From the human T2T-CHM13v2.0 reference genome, Homo sapiens, in NCBI RefSeq assembly GCF_009914755.1, contig NC_060933.1: DNA of 64,000 bases, one strand, 5' to 3'. Shown in pieces: positions 1 to 39,511 of the stretch. How positions within the stretch are numbered: the first letter of the stretch is position 1; every line of letters begins with the position of its first letter. A program made the translations under genes and the position numbers. The notes under the pieces were generated by a model. It had not been told where the DNA came from. It did no database searches and worked only from the letters and a program-made list of their open reading frames with translations.

Positions 1-3000
1 AACAATATGGTAAACCTAAATGTAAAAAAAAATTAAATTGAGTTAGGAATTTCAAAAAGACATTTCATGTGCCTTTTCAACTTTCAATTTCGTATGAAAG
101 TTGAAAAAACTTGAAATCAGTAAGTGTGCATGTGTATGTAAAACAAAATTATTGCATATAAAAACTTTTTTAAGGCATCTAGAAAATGTTTAGCAGTGTG
201 CCATAGTTTAGAGGCATTTTAAAATGCTTTTTAGTGGTACATAAAAAATTAATTAATGACAGAGTCTATGAAAAACAAGTAGAGCAGCTTGAAATAATTC
301 ACATATTTTTCATGTTAAACTTTTAGGAGAAGTCCAGTGATGTCACGATAGCTCTACAATGTTGATTTATTTTGTCGCTTTCATATGCTTATTTTATATA
401 TAAAATAGCTGAAAACAGCTATGAATTCTAAAGCATGGTAACAGGGGTAAAAGGTCACACACATTTCTTTTAGATGCTGCAAATATTGCTTCTGTTCACA
501 CGTTATCGTCCAAAAATTAGTTACATTGCCTCATCAAAGTGCAAAGAGGCTGGTAAATGTACTTTAATTTGCTAAATGCCTTGCAAGATATAGGGATGTA
601 TATTGAGGAGACAAAGAATGGAAGTGAGAATTACTTGTTATTTTGACTTCCAACTATCGGAGAACATTCCCAAAGAAATATTATACTAAATTTCTGCCTG
701 AATAATTATTTCAGCATCTCTTTCATGGTCTTTGCTTAAGGGCAGTGCTTCCAGCTGAGGTTGCATGCAGTCTTATATTCCATAGACTAAATGTCTAGGG
801 TAATTCAGACTTATAACCTAAGTTTATGTTACAACTTTTCTAACTTATGTTCCTTTGATGGAGTTTATCCTCATTGCCCCACCCCCCAAATGGTTTACTA
901 ATAAAGTATAGTCTAAAACAGGAACATTATTCTTTTTATATTCTTTAATCTCCATTGAAATAAACACAATTTGTAGAATTATTAACTAATAGAAATTAAT
1001 TGAAAAGAAGCATCTTTCTTTTATATGAACAATGACACAGTTCAAATTTATCTTGAAAACAGTTTTAAGCACAAGTAATTACCCTGAATTTGTAAATAAC
1101 CCATTTATAAGTAGGTCAATAAGAAAACATTTCAACAAATTTCAAATGTGATATCATTTCTAGATCTTATGAAATAATGGAACATGTTTTGGAAGATAAG
1201 AGAAGTTTACTTAGCCAATAATAACAGGTCTCAATCAATTATTTTTTAACAGCTAGTTTATCCCTGGATATACCTTACTATATCCTGTTTTTAGATATGG
1301 CATTTGAAAACCTCCAAGAATATAGAGATAATTTTAATTGAGCTATTATGGTTAGTATTTATTTTTAAAGTTCTGAATTTTTTTAAAAAATTCAATATTC
1401 TATGGTATATTAACAAGATTGATTGGAATAATGCATTTTTTTAATGTAGTGGGTTGGTGATATGTTTTTCTGCTGAGAAAGAAGGCTGTTCATAATCTTA
1501 AATTATATTAGGTTTTAGAAACAACGAAAATTGTGGGATTCCCTTAATGGCTTTCTTACACTTGAGTTCTAAAATATTTATCAATCTCAAATATATTTTA
1601 CATTATGTTGAAAAATGACTATTAATAGTTTCTGCTAAAAAGAATTATCAACTTTTTATGCATCACCATTTCAGAGTTGGGCTTATAAAAATATCAGTAT
1701 CTGTCCTACATATATACCAATGTTTTTCAATTTTTAGTCAATTAAATATGTTTCATTGATTTTCTGCTGTGTGCCTAAAATTGTGCATGATGATATTATA
1801 GAAGGTACTGTGAGAAGGCTTAAAGCAGTATATTTAACCACTGCCTACCAGAGTAGTACATAGAGAAGCAAGCCTAATCTATAAGCAACAATGAGAGCAT
1901 GCTACAGATAACTTTTAATATTGTAAATATATATGATACAGATGATAAAATCTTTATGAAATAATCTATAGGAGAGGTGAAATGGGTCTCTGCCAGGAGA
2001 ATGCAAAGGCAGTAAAAAATTAAAAACCAAAATATTGAGAATTATTTTGAGGAAAGTGTTAGTAGAATTTAATAATACATTTAATAGAAACATAAGATTA
2101 AAAATGCAAAGATGAATTCAAAGTTGCTTACATTCAAAAATAACTCATTAAATGTACAGTATTTTAAGCACACTTTTGATCTATGAAGAGTATAAATATG
2201 AATAAGACATAGTTCTTTAGGCTAGACATAGAGAATATTTTTTTGTATAGAAATAAAATCTAGAGTATGTAATATTAGGGGAAAGAAAATGCCTCATAGA
2301 TGTCAATAAACCTTGTTCCCTCTATTTTTTTTTTTACTGGTTTCATTTCCTGTAATAATTGTGGTAAGAGTAATGCTGAAACAATTAAACCTCCAACTCT
2401 TAAAACAATAAAAGTTATTGCTTGCTTAAATAATAGGAATGCTATCTGTGATTTCCTGCAGGGTCATTCAAAGATTTATTATTTTCCTATCCGTGGTTTT
2501 GCCATCCTCAATACATAGCTCTTGGGGGTTTTCTGTGGATTGTTTTAATGTTAGCCAACCAGAGAGAATAAAAAGAGTATTAAAAATTATTAATTGTGGG
2601 TCTATGTGACCCTGTAAGAAGGCTACATCACTACTATATACTTAGAACCTAAATTTCTATGCCAAAATATAGGCGAATATAGCAAATATTGTCCAAATTT
2701 ACAAGGAAAGAGAAAATGAATTGTGTGTTCATCTTACAGTTTCTAATAAAATCCCCAACATTGAACTTAAATGACTCTCCAGTTGTTCATTAGGAGCATA
2801 TGCTGTTGGTTGACTGCCAGCATACATTATCTCACCTTTTCTTTCTAAGATAGAACATATTCAATACATCCAAGTCTTCCAAGGCTTCAGTACTTCTCTA
2901 AGTTTACTGTCTCGTCTTCAGATTCAGGTATGATGTGATTACTCTAAGTATAGCCTGATTCTTTGCCAAAAATAAGAACAAAAATACGCATATGACCCAA

Positions 3001-3285
3001 TTCAGTACAAAGGCAAATCAGGGCAAATTACCTTAAGAGTTTTTAAAATAAATGTTTCTCTTGGTGTCTCTTTCTTGGTCTTCTGGGTAGGGTTGTATCT
3101 GAATATGATGACCCTAAATGTCTGCAGACATTTTTGCAGCAATGTTAAGGGTAAAAGTGACACAGCCAATAGCAAAGAAGTGCCAGAAAATACGTAAGCA
3201 AACTGTGACCTCTTTTTACCTCTTGATTGACTTTTATGTTAAATAATGAATTTACCTTATGCTTGAAAGAATTTGAAATAGCATT

Positions 3286-4630
3286 TGGCAGTGAAGAATT
3301 TACTCCTCCCATATTTTCATTCAAGAGAAATTTCCATGAGGAGGGTTGTTGGTGGGTTACCTCCAACTCAACCACTTCAGAGCTACTACAGTGGTAATGC
3401 ATGTTGAAGAAAAGAGTCAAACTCTGTGAAATATTTGAAGAGATTTATTCTGAGGCAAATATGAGTGACCTCGGCCTGTCACACAGCCCAGGAGATCCTA
3501 AGAACATGTGCCAAGGTTGTTGGACTACAGCTTGGATTTATACATGTGAGGGAGACATAAGACATCAATCAGTACACCTAAGATACACATTGGTAAAATT
3601 GGGAAAGGTGAGACAACTCAAAGCAGGTGGGGGTGGGGTGGGTGAAGGCTTCCAGGTTAAAGGTGAATTCAAAGATTTTCTGATTGGCATTTGACAACTG
3701 GCTAAAATAATTTATCTAAAGACCGGAATCAATAGACAGGAGTGTATGGGTTAAGATAAGGTTTTTTAGAGACCGAGGTTCTTATGCAGATGAAGCTTGC
3801 AGGTAGCAGGCTTCACTGAGAATAGATTGTAAATGATTTTTATCAGACATAAAAAGGAAAAAGGACTTGGAATCAGGAAAAATCAGGAAAAAGACTTGGA
3901 AAGAGAAGGGGATTCTCTACAAAATGGAGATTTTCCCCACAGAAACAGCCTTGTAGGGCCATTTCAAAATATGTCAAAGAAATGTATTTTTGTGGTGAAA
4001 TACTTTGATTTCTTTCAAGGCCTGCTATCTGTCATGTTGATATCTTATTGCTACGAAGAGTCTGTTTTGTCATTCTTAAGTCTCTACTTTAATGTTAACA
4101 CTGTTCAGCTATGCATGAATTCCGAAAGGATGAAAGTAAATAACGAGGCACGTTCAACCACCCATTTCCGTCATGGCCTCCATTACTGTTTCAGGTTTAG
4201 TTTAAAATGCCCTTGGCCAAGATAAAGAGCCCATTTAGTTGGTTAACGGACATTGAATTTTATTTTTGGCTTACATGCAGGTGCCATGCTCTCCTTAGGT
4301 TGCTGCTCCCTGCCAATGCTGAGCAAGGAAGATATTATAGGGCTTTTCATTCTTGTCCCACATGGACTCATCTAAAGGTCAAAGTTCACTTTGGTGCTCT
4401 TTCAGTGTGGCTGACAATTTCTCAGATCTGCACTCTTCTCTGAGGCTCCTCCTTTCCAATTATCTTTCATGCTCTCTCTTCTTTTGAGGTGCCGGCTTGC
4501 ATCATGATCTGGAGGCTCTTGCAGCCTCTTGCTCTATCTTCTCTTTATTCTTCAAAGGCGTTTTCTCTGGTTACTCTCTTATACGTGTAATTCCATCTTG
4601 GTGTCTGATTCTTGGGAAACCCAAACTGGC
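3286..4630 (+). mobile_element. LTR16-family (ERVL) solo LTR, split by a MER4 insertion
   Basis: The 3' part (4280-4630) matches the LTR16 end (tcagatctgcact...ctgaggctc...ccatcttggtgtctgattcttgggaaacccaaact). The 5' part is about 3286-3401. Confidence 0.6.
3402..4275 (-). mobile_element. MER4-group (ERV1) solo LTR
   Basis: TG...CA termini (tgttgaagaaaagagtcaaactctg...ttttggcttaca), the MER4 motif gagatttattctgag-caaatatgagtgacc, and a 4-bp TSD tgca on both sides. Confidence 0.85.
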
Positions 4631-30997: not shown

Positions 30998-33360
30998 ACT
31001 TCTATCATTCTTAAAATTTGTAAATTATTTATTTCCTATTATTTTCTCCATAGTCTGGCCAGAGATTTAACAATTTTATTGATCCCTTCAAAGATCTAAA
31101 TTTAGTTTAATTTACTTAGCTATATAATTTTTCTCCGTTTAATGTTGTTTATTTCTTCATTAACCTTTATTATTTTCTTCTTTCTGATTGCTTCAGAATT
31201 AATTTGTTCTCATTTTTATAATAACAAGTTGGAAGCTTTCATCATAATTTCAAGGTAATTCTTCTTTTCTAATGCAAGCTCTTAATGGGATAGATTTTTC
31301 CCTAAACACAGAAATTTCCACATTTTGATATGTTATACTTTTTTAAATTTCTCTTACTTTTGGCTAGGTTCATGTTTAAATATACATATGTGCAAGAATA
31401 TTTTCCCTTGATTTATATGGATTTAGAGGTTAAAAAAAGGCAAAAAAAATATTTTGGAAATTTCTAGGAGACTTAGTTCACCATAATTGTTACATAATTG
31501 TGCATATGTTGCAAGTAATGTATTGAGAAAAGTATTTATATCTGTATACATGTTTGGTCCTTAATGATGAAATTAATGCACAGTTGTCTAACTGTAATAA
31601 TTTCCTTATAATCACACTAGTTTTCCTTTGGTGCCACAAGATGATGAATCTCACTTTAGTGTGACCAAGCAAAATGAGGTACAAAAACAGTCCAATCAAT
31701 GTGAAAATATCTCAAATTCACATGAATTTTAAAAATATTTTATATGTAAATTAAATTAGAAATTAAATATATATAATATATTTTATTTCAGAAATATTTG
31801 CTTGCCTTTTGGAACTCAAAAGTTCAAAACCTTCTATTGTCATCTTTAAATAACTAATTTTTAAGTTAATTTCTACTTGGTTCTATGAAAATACTACCAC
31901 ACAATGTGGAGATAAAGAAAACATTTACAGAAAAATTGTCCATATGGACACATTTTAAACAGATGATCTAATTAGCATAATAGCCACCAAACTGGTAAAT
32001 AAACAGTTTTGTTGATTTGCTGCTTAATCAGCATCTATTCAGAATTCTGTAATATTGTTTAGTAAAACAGTTTATTTCCATCCATAAATGTATTTTATAA
32101 ATTTATGCCCAGTAAACTTCCAGGTAAACCATCGAAATATTAACTGTTTTCTACAAGTGATGGTCTTTTTTTTTAAGCTGGTTTCTATAATGAATTGATG
32201 AGAGCGAATGAAGATTAAAATGCTTATTCTGTAATAAAAGCCAATGCCAGCATGCCGATATATAATCTCTATAGATCAAAAAATATTCATGCCTTATTCT
32301 CAGATTTTTAATAGTGGCTCTAAGCAGTCTTAAAAATTTATTATTTAGACACCTTATCCTATATTTTAAAAATATTTTCTTAGTATACTGTGGATGTTAT
32401 ACAAGTCATATAATGGATAGAGAATTTCTTACATAAATTTACAATAAAATTTTTTAAATAAAACTTTTGTGAAATTATTTTCAAATGTTATAAATGTTAA
32501 TGAGTTTTGTTATATTGGTTCCAATATTTCTCATATATGGAAAATGTCATTTTCCCTGGGAATTAATATTTGGAACTGGTGTTTAAGAAAAACCATGTTT
32601 GATGTTGGAAAATGCTATGTCCGGTATAACTATAGATGTTTGGAAAGCAGCTCAGTTATGCTAAAGATAAAGAAAGGAGAGAAAAATGACAGAAGGGGAG
32701 GTTTGAACAAAACAAAATAATACCTGAAAATGTTGAATGGATATGTAATATTTGTGAATGTTTATGTTCTCTATTTCACCATTATTTAAACATTTATATT
32801 TTCAAAGGGAGACAATAATTATATTTTGAAATCATTTTATTTTTTTATAGAGTGCTGTATTTTTTCTTTTCAATTTCAATTTGGTGAGCAAACAAAATCA
32901 GTCAGAATATTATACATAATTAGGTTTCCTTTTTGAGATTTGTTGAAACTCTTTATCCTTTATGTATGTATTTCAAGTAGTATAATAAAAAAGAAATATA
33001 AAATGATCAGATATACATAAAAGTATTGTAGATTATGTTTTTTCATATTTTCTTTCTTTTAATGTATTTTGCAGATATAGCCATTCCAGATTATGATTTC
33101 ACAAACTAAGATGATTCTCAGTAGGGAAGCGTTACTGCATGTCGTTTTCATCAAAGGGAGCTTAGTTTATTTGCCTGTCTGAATATTGACATTATATTAC
33201 TAATTTACACATTGGGGAAAGGGTCAAGAGAACTCCAAATTTTTGTTGACTTGATATTAACCTGAAAGGGGAATGTTAATAAATGACAAAATATATCCAC
33301 AGTAGTTAGATATCAAGTTGTGTTTATTTTTTTAATCTACTGCATATTATTGAATTATTT

Positions 33361-33397
33361 AGATAGATAGATAGATAGATAGATATAGATAGATAGA
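33361..33397. repeat. (GATA)n / (TCTA)n microsatellite
   Basis: agatagatagatagatagatagatatagatagataga. Confidence 0.95.
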
Positions 33398-33402
33398 TTT
33401 AT

Positions 33403-33767
33403 TAGATGTACAGGAAATAGAATTCACTGGTGGGCATGCGTAAAGAGGGGGCAGCTCTTTTCTAATGCAGGGCTAGCTGCTTGTCCAGGGGCCCGTGATT
33501 CCAGGGCTATATTTGGCCCCACAGCCATCCAGGATGAGTTGTTTCTCAGCCACCAAGTCTTAAAATGTATATGCATTAAACTTGGTAAAATCGCACTTCT
33601 TTGAGATGTGGCTTTTTGGGCATTCACTGAACTTGAATTTGGCCCTAAATAAGGCCTCAGTCACATGCTCCAGGGTTTGCAGCTTGGTATGGATGAACAT
33701 GGCCAATGTGAACTCTGACCTCTGGGTCCTGAGGCTTTCCAAAGGCATACTACATCCGGTCTTAAAC
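33403..33767 (-). pseudogene. RPL10: RPL10 processed pseudogene fragment (last coding exons and 3' UTR)
   Basis: The minus strand translates AFGKPQ..VRVHIG, then [57 protein letters not shown]10 reads [77 protein letters not shown]. A frameshift, a stop and an RPL10-like 3' UTR are present. Confidence 0.93.
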
Positions 33768-33816
33768 CTAGACTAGGGAAAGCACTAGATCCAAGACATA
33801 AATGTCCAATGGCAAA
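33768..33816 (-). other. Retained 3' end of the RPL10 host intron, with its 3' splice site
   Basis: The minus strand reads tttgccattggacatttatgtcttggatctagtgctttccctagtctAG|Gtttaagacc, a pyrimidine tract and AG ending exactly where the exon homology begins. Confidence 0.75.
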
Positions 33817-33914
33817 GGCTGTTGTACGCAAGGAACAGGCTGCTGCACACTACCTAGGATGCTGCTGTTTGCAGCCCTTCCACACCAGGCCCCATGTGGC
33901 TTAATTGATTGTAG
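33817..33914 (-). ncRNA. SNORA70: SNORA70 (U70) box H/ACA snoRNA retrocopy, degenerate
   Basis: The minus strand reads caattaagcc...catgggg...gtgtg...ggctgcaaACAGCAgcatcctaggtagtgt...gcagcctgtt...ACAgcc, matching SNORA70. The H box is at 33863-33868 and the ACA box lies 3 nt from the end. The copy is about 98 nt, shorter than the ~135-nt parent. Confidence 0.88.
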
Positions 33915-34185
33915 AAATTATTTTATATATTAAGTTTTTGGGGATTCCTATCTTTTATTCAAGATAGCTAAATGTAATTTATATTAGACCATATACAGTA
34001 AGTTGTAAATTATAGAAGTTGTGCTTATCAAAATCATATTCAGTGGGCAATATGGCCTTTAATATAATGAAGTTTACTGATAAAAATTAAAATAAAATAA
34101 TGTGGTTTTGTAGTGCTCTTGTATGTCAACTAAAACAAATTAACAAAACCTATTGAAACCCATAATCATTTAGACTATCTACTTA

Positions 34186-34477
34186 CACTTTGGGAGGCCA
34201 AGGTGGGCAGATCACCTGAGGTCAGGAGTTCAAGACGAGCCTGGCCAACATAGTGACATCCCATCTTTACTAAAAACACAAAAATTAAACAGGCGTGGTG
34301 GTGCATGCCTGTAATTTCAGCTACTCAGGAGGCTGAGGCAGGGAGAACTGCTTGAACTTGGGAAGGGGAGGTTACAGTGAGCCAAGACTGGGCCACTGAA
34401 CTCCAACCTGGGCGACAGAGGGAGACTCCATCTCAAAAACAAACAAACAAACAAACAAACAAAAACACAACAAAAAA
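34186..34477 (+). mobile_element. AluS, 5'-truncated, with a (CAAA)n tail
   Basis: Starts at cactttgggagg; 12-bp TSD actatctactta (34174-34185 and 34478-34489). Confidence 0.9.
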
Positions 34478-36575
34478 ACTATCTACTTAAATACCATTCT
34501 ATTAAAATAAATATTTTTCTGTGATCTTAGGTTTGTTTTGTCTCAATAATATAAATAGTGTATTGGCTGTCTCAAAGTGTTAAATGGAAGCATATTTTAT
34601 GGGATTGCTGAAATATCTACCAACTTTTCTTACTGTAAGTTATGCAATGGTGCATTGATTAATGCATTGGAACTTGTTAAGCAGTTTGCATGTCTGAAAA
34701 ACCAAGGTTCAGAGGTATGTAGGTTAAATCCGGCAATCAAATATCAGAGAGATATTTCAGAATATTATTTTTGTGTACCAGAAAACACTTTTCAAAAAAA
34801 AAAAAAGTAAGGGCATTAGGAAGGCATTGTAAGGTTAATCTTTTCCAGCAAAGCTATTACATTGATTTTTCTGGAGTTCTTTAGTTATAAAAAGTAGAAT
34901 GTAGTTATAGGATCTAGTCAGCATTAAATTGATTGAAAAAATGAAAAACACTGTTTCATTTTTAAATAGATTAACAATTAAGCAAGTTGTTTATGTTGTC
35001 CCACTGATATACTAGAATATGCTACATTCTTTTGGGCATCTTTCAGACCATAGGGCTAAAATGTTGAGAATGACAGAGAGACAATTAGGAGCTCAGCACA
35101 AAGCAAAATGTTATGAATCAGGAAAATAAATAGAACAGAGATCAAAATTAGATAGATGCAGAATTGGAATGATACTGAAAACAAGAGATGGAACTGCAGA
35201 AAATACTATGGCAGATCATTCATTCCTTTGAATGGTGAAAGTAGTTAATACAATGGCTAACAATTGAAATGGAAAACCAGACCCAGATGAAAAAATGCAA
35301 ACCAGTAAACTTACCTAGTCCTATTATTTTACTCAATTGTAGGAAATACATGAAAAAAAAGTTGTTCATTATGAATCCTTTTTTCTAACATAGGAAGAAG
35401 TCACCACTAAACCTTTCTCATTTTTTTACTCAAATGTTTGTGTTTTCTCATAGAACTTATAATTTTAATTTATTTTTCAATATATGTTTCCCATACAGTC
35501 TAGTTGGATTCATAGTTGCAATGTTTCATGTGGTATATTTGCTCCCTATGGAACAGAACATAACATTAATCTTTAGATGTGTCACTAGAGAGATTTGTAT
35601 ATATCCACATAAATCTACAGTTGCAACTAGAAAAATTATCCTGTGAAAATTTTGTGATATGAATGTCTTTCAACTTTTTAAAAAGTAAAGAGAAAATGAT
35701 GAACAAACATGAGTTGGAAATCAGAATGAACAAATCATGAAAATATAGTGTACCCCTTCAAAAATTTTGAAAATTAAGAGAAATCGGTAGAACAGCTATA
35801 TTATCATTTACAAAAATGTTTCTCTACCTATAGAACAAACAATTACTTTGTCCTCTAATTTCCAAATAACTTACAGAACATTTATTTCCTACTGTCACTG
35901 GAATGGCAGGCTGGCAGGCTGAGTTGGTAGCCCAATTGGTTCCTCACATCAAAAGATTCCCTTTATTATTTCCTTATTTTCTCTTTAATTCTGGCACTCC
36001 TTCATGATTGAACTTACAGATGTTCTTTTGTCTACTAATTTTCGAGTAAGCCTGTGCTCTCTATAACTTTCAGTCTCAATTTCCTCCTACCATCAGCCTT
36101 TTGTCTAAACATTCTTATTCTGGTTTGTTTCCCTGAACTCTTGACATCAATCTCTGTTCCTTCAATATTCTGTTTCTTCTACTGGAAGCATTCTTTCCCA
36201 GATTTCACCCACTTTACTCTTCTCAATCTCTGTGTCTGAGTTAAATGCTTCCTTAGGTTTCTATGTAGGATTGTCTGTCCATCTGTAATTTTTCTATATC
36301 TCTCATGTTAACATACTTATATCCTTTACTGAAAAATGTCTCCTTTAAAAAAAAATCAATGTGTTTGTTTACTTTCTTAAAATGCCGTCTTAAACTGCAA
36401 GGTCAAAGAAGGTAAGTATGATATTTGGATATAAATATCTACCACTTAATACAGAAACTATTCTAGCACTTGTATAGGCAGTATAAGACATAATTTTAGA
36501 ACTCTAAAATAAAAACTCATAAACTGAAGTTAAATATCCATTTCCCACTGCTATCTCCTTTTCCTTTTAACACAT

Positions 36576-39210: not shown

Positions 39211-39511
39211 GCCAGGTGACACACACCTGTTGTCCCAGCTACTCAGGATGCTGAGGCGGGAGGAACACTTGAGCCCAGGAGTTCTGGGTTGTATGCACTA
39301 TGTTGAGGAAGTGTCTGCACTAAGTTTGGCATCAATATGTTAGCTTCCAGGGAGCAGAGGACCACCAGGTTGCCTAAGGAGTGGTCAACTCAAAAATTGA
39401 GCAGAATAAAACTCCTCTGCTTATCAGTAGTGGGATGACCCCTTTGAATAGTCACTGCACTACAACCTGGGCAACATAGTGAGACCCTATTTCTTAACAA
39501 AAAAAAGAAAG
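39211..39511 (+). pseudogene. RN7SL: 7SL (SRP) RNA processed pseudogene
   Basis: Alu-domain ends enclose the S domain (gtgtctgcactaagtttggcatcaatatg...accaccaggttgcctaaggag...atcagtagtgggat). An A-tail and a TSD aaatacctttca/aaataccttcca are present. Confidence 0.92.

What the first reader, a model, noticed from the sequence alone, without database searches (positions are those of the whole stretch)
33353..33923. Retro-fossil of a snoRNA-5'-ended, intron-retaining, polyadenylated RPL10 RNA (SNORA70 + intron end + spliced exons)
Seen on the minus strand, in order: a SNORA70 copy starting at about 33914, 49 nt of intron ending in a pyrimidine tract and AG (33816-33768), RPL10 coding sequence running without interruption to the 3' UTR, an A-rich tail and (TCTA)n. 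A candidate TSD aattattt flanks it (33353-33360 and 33916-33923). Established: SNORA70 is encoded in an RPL10 intron and guides 18S rRNA pseudouridylation, and snoRNA retroposons carrying downstream host exons are a described class, so the class is not new. Inference: the copy begins at the snoRNA 5' boundary, keeps the snoRNA-bearing intron end, and appears to lack the downstream RPL10 intron. The template would then be a germline RNA trimmed to, and protected by, the H/ACA snoRNP at its 5' end and polyadenylated at the host site, like snoRNA-capped polyadenylated RNAs. The alternative is L1 RT stalling at the snoRNA on an intron-retaining pre-mRNA.
Basis: partly seen in the sequence, partly recalled or inferred. 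Interest (0 to 1): 0.8.

Follow-up and report, generated by a model that had tools for sequence, protein, structure and literature searches.

The report
Old SNORA70–RPL10 snoRNA retrocopy (known class)

Summary
On the minus strand, window 33915-33361 aligns to the X-linked RPL10 gene as follows: SNORA70 from its 5' end, the 48-49 nt downstream part of its host intron, the penultimate exon, the last exon with the 75-nt last intron exactly missing, and the 3' UTR up to the normal poly(A) site. An A-rich remnant and (TCTA)n follow. An 8-bp target site duplication (AAATAATT) flanks the element. No homology to the intron exists upstream of the snoRNA.

This is exactly a "Type-3 U70 snoRT" (Weber 2006, PLoS Genet). 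The predicted RNA is also in print as the RPL10-SNORA70 "3'-snoRT" (2025).

My survey of T2T-CHM13 found 31 independent snoRNA-bearing copies and 10 spliced RPL10 pseudogenes. None extends into the upstream intron. Nine have duplications ending 0-3 nt before the snoRNA start.

The window copy is the most diverged of the 25 copies measured. Its snoRNA is dead (39.4 bits, both hairpins deleted). It was later spread by segmental duplication to at least 10 places. Verdict: real, ordinary, already known.

The parts
33916..33923 (-). 5' copy of the target site duplication (AAATAATT), preceded by ATATAT, so the target reads T/AAAA like an L1 endonuclease site
   Evidence: Sequence. Conserved in the 8 paralogues aligned. 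Chance about 1e-3.
33817..33915 (-). SNORA70 (U70) H/ACA snoRNA copy, from 1 nt before Rfam position 1 to ACA plus 3 nt. Decayed: 17 nt missing from the 5' hairpin and 21 nt from the 3' hairpin.
   Evidence: Rfam RF00156 at 39.4 bits against a gathering score of 40. Alignment to parent 1500-1635. The chr4 paralogue keeps 15 nt of the 5' hairpin that this copy has lost.
33768..33816 (-). Retained 3' part of the snoRNA-hosting (penultimate) RPL10 intron, ending in a pyrimidine-rich stretch and TAG
   Evidence: Aligns to parent 1636-1683.
33612..33767 (-). RPL10 penultimate exon, with an 8-nt deletion and frame-breaking changes
   Evidence: Aligns to parent 1684-1846. Broken reading frames.
33403..33611 (-). 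RPL10 last exon: end of the coding sequence and the short 3' UTR up to the canonical poly(A) site, joined directly to the previous exon because the 75-nt last intron is absent
   Evidence: Aligns to parent 1922 to about 2137, with a single 75-column gap over parent 1847-1921.
33361..33402 (-). Remnant of the poly(A) tail: ATAAA followed by a (TCTA)n microsatellite whose length varies among paralogues
   Evidence: Sequence. Repeat number differs between the 8 paralogues aligned.
33353..33360 (-). 3' copy of the target site duplication (AAATAATT)

Best explanation
Window 33361-33915 (minus strand) is a Type-3 U70/SNORA70 snoRNA retroposon. It is an L1-mediated retrocopy of an RPL10-derived RNA with three properties. 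Its 5' end lay at, or 1 nt before, the 5' end of SNORA70. It kept the 48 nt of intron downstream of the snoRNA. It had the last intron spliced out and was polyadenylated at the normal RPL10 site.

The template is best explained as follows (inferred). An intron-retaining RPL10 transcript was cut upstream of the snoRNA. It was then digested 5' to 3' until the assembled H/ACA snoRNP blocked the exonuclease. This is the RNA now called a 3'-snoRT or cSPA-like RNA. L1 endonuclease nicked a T/AAAA site, the poly(A) tail primed reverse transcription, and the cDNA ran to the end of the template. The result is an 8-bp target site duplication.

The insertion is very old; non-CpG K2P distance to the parent is 0.28. 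The snoRNA has lost parts of both hairpins, the coding frame is broken, and the tail has become a (TCTA)n microsatellite. The element has no function today. The locus, probably originally at chr4:135.09 Mb, was later copied by segmental duplication to the chr9 pericentromeric region (6 copies, this window included) and to chr13, chr14 and chr21.
For: Anatomy shown directly by alignment to the RPL10 gene and by Rfam.

Retroposition rather than DNA duplication: the last intron is precisely absent, homology ends at the poly(A) site used by the other copies (parent 2131-2139), an A-rich tail remnant is present, and the 8-bp duplication has a chance of about 1e-3.

Template ended at the snoRNA 5' end:
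- In 69 loci compared with the parent, no BLAST match falls in the upstream intron part 1163-1495.
- Over 20 copies, per-position identity to the parent at 1480-1495 is 68 of 320 (21%, background). It rises to 10/20 at 1500, 15/20 at 1501 and 17-19/20 at most positions from 1504 on (14/20 at 1506, 13/20 at 1507).
- Nine copies have duplications of 8-17 nt ending 0-3 nt before position 1501.
- All 10 RPL10 pseudogenes that lack the snoRNA have this intron fully spliced out, so no copy derives from a full-length intron-retaining RNA.

Literature:
- Weber 2006 (PMC1687206, sections 8, 14 and 15 read) describes the same anatomy, 30 human U70 Type-3 snoRTs against 12 plain pseudogenes, and the same mechanism.
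- PMC12152556 (passages read) reports RPL10-SNORA70 3'-snoRT RNA. It also reports that 3'-snoRT 5' ends lie at a median of 2 nt upstream of H/ACA snoRNAs.

Segmental duplication: 10 copies share flanks, the duplication and the 21-nt deletion. The chr4 copy matches the window across the 3.5 kb compared (window-locus positions 6-3563), with 107 mismatches in 3580 columns.
Against: The duplication is short (8 bp) and AT-rich.

The poly(A) tail is inferred from an ATAAA remnant plus a microsatellite, not seen as a run of A.

The RNA-level steps (endonucleolytic cut, exonuclease block by the snoRNP, cytoplasmic or nuclear encounter with L1) are not observable in DNA. The published 3'-snoRT data are somatic and tumour-derived, not germline.

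Seven other copies are truncated inside the snoRNA (starts at 1543-1557). So reverse transcriptase arrest or another 5' end does occur in this template.
Confidence: 0.93

Rival explanations
1. L1 reverse transcriptase stalled at the snoRNA while copying a full-length intron-retaining RPL10 pre-mRNA. On this reading the 5' end reflects enzyme arrest, not the end of the RNA.
For: Seven independent copies are truncated inside the snoRNA, all starting at parent 1543-1557 on the 3' strand of the 5' hairpin. Four or five of them have duplications abutting the truncated end. So arrest within this structure does happen. Weber 2006 also attributes the partial copies to reverse transcriptase arrest (section 8 read).
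Against: An enzyme moving 3' to 5' would stall on entering a structure or RNP, not exactly after leaving it. 19 of 31 copies stop at 1496-1508, and none of the 69 loci continues into the 338-nt upstream intron part or the upstream exon. No retrocopy of a full-length intron-retaining RPL10 RNA exists among the 10 spliced pseudogenes. Long-read RNA 5' ends of 3'-snoRTs lie at the same place, a median of 2 nt upstream (PMC12152556, passage read).
Confidence: 0.04
2. A chimeric retrocopy made by template switching of the L1 reverse transcriptase from RPL10 mRNA to mature SNORA70, in the manner of U6-L1 chimeras.
For: Such chimeras of small nuclear RNAs with mRNAs are known (recalled; also cited in Weber 2006 section 10 as a contrast).
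Against: The 49 nt between the snoRNA and the exon are the contiguous genomic intron sequence, and the exon starts exactly at its splice acceptor. A switch from mature mRNA to mature snoRNA could not produce this. The same junction recurs in every copy surveyed that retains the exon part.
Confidence: 0.01
3. A DNA-level partial duplication of the RPL10 gene, or a chance resemblance.
For: The locus lies in a region rich in segmental duplications, and it was itself duplicated at least 9 times.
Against: The last intron is precisely absent. Homology begins and ends at RNA landmarks (snoRNA 5' end, poly(A) site). The element is flanked by a duplication. Nucleotide homology to RPL10 spans about 500 aligned bases at 75% identity.
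Confidence: 0.01

Closest known systems
Type-3 U70 (SNORA70) snoRNA retroposons, Weber 2006, PLoS Genet 2:e205 (PMC1687206)
   Same: Every feature matches: it starts at the mature snoRNA 5' end, keeps the entire downstream intron part, has the last two RPL10 exons processed, carries a poly(A)-derived tail, and has a duplication at an L1-type target. The paper also notes snoRT copies multiplied on chr9 and chr4 by segmental duplication, although the case it names is a U109 snoRT.
   Different: Nothing in kind. This copy is at the old, decayed end of the family: the most diverged of the 25 I measured. It is present in at least 10 paralogous places in T2T-CHM13. I could not check whether this locus is in that paper's Figure S3 or Table 3, because they are .doc and PDF supplements that I did not open.
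RPL10-SNORA70 3'-snoRT RNA (PMC12152556, 2025) and cytoplasmic dyskerin-bound snoRNA-retaining transcripts (PMC9394076, 2022)
   Same: This RNA has the structure required of the template. It is polyadenylated, and its 5' end lies within a few nt upstream of the H/ACA snoRNA (median 2 nt). The DNA copies end 0-3 nt upstream.
   Different: It is an RNA seen in somatic cells, tumours and plasma, whereas the window holds a DNA fossil. Neither paper mentions retroposition: no word starting with 'retro' occurs in PMC12152556, and neither 'retrotranspos' nor 'retropos' occurs in PMC9394076.
SPA lncRNAs and the SNORD86 cSPA (5' snoRNA-ended, 3' polyadenylated RNAs; known to me from review PMC11028025, passages read, and from recall of Wu 2016 and Lykke-Andersen 2018)
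   Same: The same architecture: a snoRNP blocks a 5'-to-3' exonuclease and so takes the place of a cap on a polyadenylated RNA.
   Different: The Prader-Willi SPAs arise from read-through and are nuclear, with C/D snoRNA ends. Here the end is an H/ACA snoRNA inside a protein-coding host. Membership cannot be tested from DNA.
Ordinary RPL10 processed pseudogenes
   Same: L1-mediated, spliced, polyadenylated at the same site.
   Different: They contain the upstream exons and no snoRNA or intron. There are 10 such loci in CHM13 against 31 snoRNA-bearing ones.

Membership tests
Type-3 snoRNA retroposon (Weber 2006) | 5' end coincides with the 5' end of the mature snoRNA, give or take a few nt | tested here: met
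   Homology to the parent starts at T1500/C1501, window 33915/33914. Five of 34 upstream positions match, which is background. Rfam model position 1 falls at 33914.
Type-3 snoRNA retroposon (Weber 2006) | Entire intron sequence downstream of the snoRNA retained | tested here: met
   33816-33768 (49 nt) aligns to parent 1636-1683 (48 nt) and ends in TAG at the acceptor.
Type-3 snoRNA retroposon (Weber 2006) | Downstream host exons present in spliced form | tested here: met
   The 75-nt last intron (parent 1847-1921) is absent as one gap.
Type-3 snoRNA retroposon (Weber 2006) | Poly(A) tail at the host gene's polyadenylation site | tested here: met
   Homology ends at about parent 2133-2137, like the other copies. 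It is followed by ATAAA plus (TCTA)n of variable length. The tail is a remnant, so this feature is met by inference.
Type-3 snoRNA retroposon (Weber 2006) | Target site duplication abutting the insertion, at an L1 endonuclease-type site | tested here: met
   The 8-bp AAATAATT lies 1 nt from the snoRNA start and directly after the tail. Chance is about 1e-3. The target reads T/AAAA.
Type-3 snoRNA retroposon (Weber 2006) | Insertion absent at the orthologous site of an outgroup species | not testable with these tools
   Only the human assembly is held; there are no other mammalian genomes.
Functional SNORA70 paralogue (H/ACA snoRNA gene) | Two intact hairpins with pseudouridylation pockets, an H box and an ACA box, and a score over the Rfam gathering threshold | tested here: not met
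   39.4 bits against 40. 17 nt are missing from the 5' hairpin and 21 nt from the 3' hairpin, although ACAGCA and ACA plus 3 nt remain.
SPA / cSPA / 3'-snoRT RNA (as the template) | RNA with a snoRNP-protected, uncapped 5' end and a poly(A) tail | not testable with these tools
   This is an RNA-level property. It is supported only indirectly, by the DNA 5' ends and by PMC12152556.

The most novel reading that the evidence does not exclude
The human genome's U70 Type-3 snoRTs are the germline fossil record of the RPL10-SNORA70 3'-snoRT (cSPA-like) RNA. That minor, uncapped, dyskerin-ended RNA would then have been a better L1 template than the far more abundant RPL10 mRNA. The support is the count of 31 snoRNA-bearing copies against 10 spliced pseudogenes in CHM13, with the window copy among the oldest, so the bias has lasted through most of eutherian history. 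The explicit link between 3'-snoRT or SPA RNAs and snoRNA retroposons did not turn up in my searches (no word starting with 'retro' in PMC12152556).
Probability: 0.45. Interest if true: 0.3.

Novelty: already known. Interest (0 to 1): 0.1.

Why it matters
For this locus, very little. The one point of wider use is a reminder that Type-3 snoRTs record, base by base, where snoRNP-protected polyadenylated host-gene fragments began in the germline. In my survey, duplication-flanked 5' ends lie 0-3 nt before SNORA70. That agrees with the median of 2 nt reported for H/ACA 3'-snoRT long reads. The old retroposon literature and the recent 3'-snoRT/cSPA literature therefore describe the same molecule and could be cross-cited.

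Tried and rejected
1. A possible 5' end at parent A1496. Several copies seemed to share ATG.T upstream of the snoRNA. I rejected this for two reasons. Per-position identity at 1498-1499 is 3/20 and 2/20. In L035 those bases belong to a 17-nt target site duplication.

2. Using BLAST start positions alone to call truncated copies. L059 and L064 turned out to have a recognisable 5' part (shuffle p 0.02 and 0.06). L048 and L011 are full-length only by the Rfam alignment. I therefore list 4 copies as uncertain.

3. Mapping the extent of the segmental duplication with a 20-kb query. The call returned nothing scored because there were too many letters. I can only say the chr4-chr9 homology spans at least the 3.5 kb held in L001 and L010.

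5. Looking for Weber's chr9/chr4 U109 snoRT in this window. The whole-window Rfam scan at gathering threshold shows only a 7SL match, so the window holds no recognisable SCARNA18 or U109.

6. Protein-level confirmation of RPL10 (Pfam, PDB) was not run. The nucleotide alignment to the gene itself made it unnecessary.
Full report
**What is there.** I read the minus strand of window 33200-34200 and scanned 32000-35500 against Rfam. SNORA70 (RF00156) matches 33914-33820 (-) at 39.4 bits, E 2.4e-05. That is just under the gathering score of 40, with large deletions in both hairpins.

The window's own genome is held as G000, with the window at C9:43090001-43154000. A search with RF00156 located the parent SNORA70 at C23:152636801-152636935, scoring 161.8 bits. 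The surrounding locus L031 holds the 3' half of RPL10.

In L031 coordinates the gene is laid out as follows:
- snoRNA-hosting intron: 1163-1683
- SNORA70: 1501-1635
- penultimate exon: 1684-1846
- last intron: 1847-1921
- last exon: from 1922
- AATAAA signal: 2112-2117

**Alignment to the gene (supported by the BLAST table).**
- Homology begins at window 33915/33914, equal to parent T1500/C1501.
- The snoRNA copy ends at 33817.
- 33816-33768 aligns to the 48-nt downstream intron part and ends in TAG.
- 33767-33612 is the penultimate exon.
- The 75-nt last intron is missing as one clean gap.
- 33611 to about 33403 is the last exon and 3' UTR. It ends where the other retrocopies end, at parent 2131-2139.
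- Then come ATAAA and (TCTA)n (33402-33361).
- The 8-mer AAATAATT flanks the element on both sides (33923-33916 and 33360-33353).

A shared 8-mer in 12-nt flanks occurs in 0.09% of random pairs of places in the window, and in 0.15% under the local composition.

One detail needs correcting. The AATAAA next to the microsatellite is tail remnant. The true signal has mutated to AGTGAA.

**What it is.** This is a Type-3 U70 snoRNA retroposon. I read sections 8, 14 and 15 of Weber 2006 (PMC1687206), plus passages found by term search. The paper defines Type-3 snoRTs by four features:
- they contain the entire downstream intron sequence;
- they contain the processed 3' exons;
- they carry a poly(A) tail.

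It states that U70 lies in the penultimate RPL10 intron. It reports that, of 42 human RPL10 processed pseudogenes, 30 are Type-3 U70 snoRTs (18 entire, 12 partial) and 12 are purely exonic.

I collected 69 loci besides the parent. They came from three genome searches and one fetch. I compared each with L031. I then merged overlapping loci and copies that share flanks, and classed the results.

| Class | Count | Notes |
|---|---|---|
| snoRNA-bearing, homology starts at parent 1496-1508 | 19 | The window family counts as one |
| snoRNA-bearing, diverged 5' part, probably full-length | 4 | L048, L059, L064, L011 |
| snoRNA-bearing, truncated, starts at 1543-1557 | 7 | L049, L053, L056, L055, L050, L051, L070 |
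| Diverged family with snoRNA only | 1 | L057 on chr1; L060 and L066 on Y |
| Spliced RPL10 pseudogenes, no snoRNA or intron | 10 | |
| Fragment of the last exon only | 1 | L068 |

The total of snoRNA-bearing insertions is 31.

- No locus has any BLAST match to the upstream intron part 1163-1495.
- In an ungapped comparison of 20 copies, identity to the parent is 68 of 320 (21%) over 1480-1495. It is 10/20 at 1500, 15/20 at 1501, and 17-19/20 at most positions from 1504 on, dipping to 14/20 at 1506 and 13/20 at 1507. Three of the rows (L037, L052, L048) look mis-anchored, which lowers the counts slightly.
- Nine copies have target site duplications of 8-17 nt ending 0-3 nt before position 1501.

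The 5' ends are thus sharply clustered at the snoRNA boundary, and nothing reads through.

**Mechanism and rivals.** A reverse transcriptase that stalls would be expected to stop on entering the structured, protein-bound snoRNA. It would not be expected to stop exactly after crossing it. The seven truncated copies, all starting on the descending strand of the 5' hairpin, look like such arrests. The main class looks like run-off at the end of the template.

No retrocopy of a full-length intron-retaining RPL10 RNA exists among the loci examined. Template switching is excluded by the contiguous 49-nt intron piece. DNA-level duplication is excluded by the spliced junction, the tail and the duplication.

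The template RNA itself is now documented. PMC12152556 (passages read) defines 3'-snoRTs as polyadenylated fragments whose 5' end lies next to the intronic snoRNA. It reports a median 5' end two bases upstream of H/ACA snoRNAs. It chose RPL10-SNORA70 as its H/ACA example, detected by nanopore reads and digital PCR in cell lines, tissues and plasma.

A review (PMC11028025, passages read) places these RNAs beside SPA lncRNAs and the SNORD86 cSPA. The remaining steps are inferred, not shown here: which nuclease cuts, which exonuclease trims, and where L1 meets the RNA.

**History of this copy.** Nine further places in CHM13 match the 563-nt element. The eight on chr9 (five further copies), chr13, chr14 and chr21 match at 97-99%. 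The ninth, on chr4:135.09 Mb, matches at 89% including gaps.

The eight copies I aligned share the flanks, the duplication and the 21-nt deletion in the 3' hairpin. Only the chr4 copy keeps 15 nt of the 5' hairpin that the others have lost.

Over the 3.5 kb held, the window differs from the other copies as follows:

| Compared with | Mismatches |
|---|---|
| chr4 | 107 in 3580 columns |
| Acrocentric copies (chr13, chr14, chr21) | 65-68 |
| Other chr9 copies | 18-32 |

So this was one insertion, later spread by segmental duplication, with chr4 as the likely source. The direction is inferred from the interstitial position of the chr4 copy and from its retained bases.

Against the parent, the element has 75% identity and a non-CpG K2P distance of 0.28. 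It is the most diverged of the 25 copies measured; the youngest stand at 0.023. At commonly assumed mammalian neutral rates (recalled) this means on the order of 100 million years, but I could not check an empty site.

**Novelty and literature searches.** The class, the RPL10/U70 case, the mechanism and the RNA are all in print. Searches for a paper joining SPA or 3'-snoRT RNAs to snoRNA retroposons found none that makes the link. No word starting with 'retro' occurs in PMC12152556, and neither 'retrotranspos' nor 'retropos' occurs in PMC9394076. Subscription papers and supplements were not covered. That link is the only mildly new thought, and it is a cross-reference rather than a discovery.

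**Verdict.** A real feature, correctly read, ordinary and already known. Interest 0.1.

Noticed in passing
window 39211-39495 (+): Full-length match to metazoan SRP (7SL) RNA: 141.5 bits against a gathering score of 70, covering model positions 1-299 including most of the S domain. It is therefore a 7SL-derived pseudogene rather than an Alu. The match at 34290-34436 skips the S domain and is an Alu.
   Followed up: partly
L049, L053, L056, L055, L050, L051, L070 (G000 C19:9.95M, C18:3.18M, C8:33.8M, C16:55.9M, C17:30.7M, C12:75.7M, C7:103.6M): All seven 5'-truncated SNORA70-RPL10 retrocopies begin within a 15-nt span of the parent (1543-1557), on the 3' strand of the snoRNA's 5' hairpin. None begins in the 3' hairpin, the downstream intron or the penultimate exon. 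Four or five have duplications abutting the truncated end. This suggests a preferred reverse transcriptase arrest point or a second protected RNA 5' end.
   Followed up: partly
L031 position 1502 (G000:C23:152636802): The parent SNORA70 in CHM13 has C at snoRNA position 2, forming a CpG. All 20 retrocopies compared have T there, including copies only about 2% diverged, and the Rfam consensus has U. Either the source gene carried T when the copies were made, or every copy lost the CpG.
   Followed up: no
L057 (G000:C1:201789107-201789236) and L060/L066 (G000:C24:25439864 and 27059288): A diverged SNORA70-like sequence without RPL10 exons (55-64 bits) occurs on chr1 and twice on Y, with the same upstream flank. 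It is one old snoRNA-only copy spread by chr1-Y and intra-Y duplication.
   Followed up: no
L041, L047, L056, L070: Four U70 snoRTs are interrupted by later insertions of about 300 nt. In L070 the insertion lies inside the snoRNA, and about 12 nt of snoRNA are duplicated at its ends, as expected for an Alu. This matches Weber's remark on Alu-interrupted U70 snoRTs.
   Followed up: no
window 33361-33397 and paralogues: The (TCTA)n derived from the poly(A) tail differs in repeat number among the 8 paralogues aligned. It is nearly absent from the chr9:48.07M copy and longest in chr9:41.72M. The microsatellite has therefore stayed mutable after the segmental duplications.
   Followed up: no
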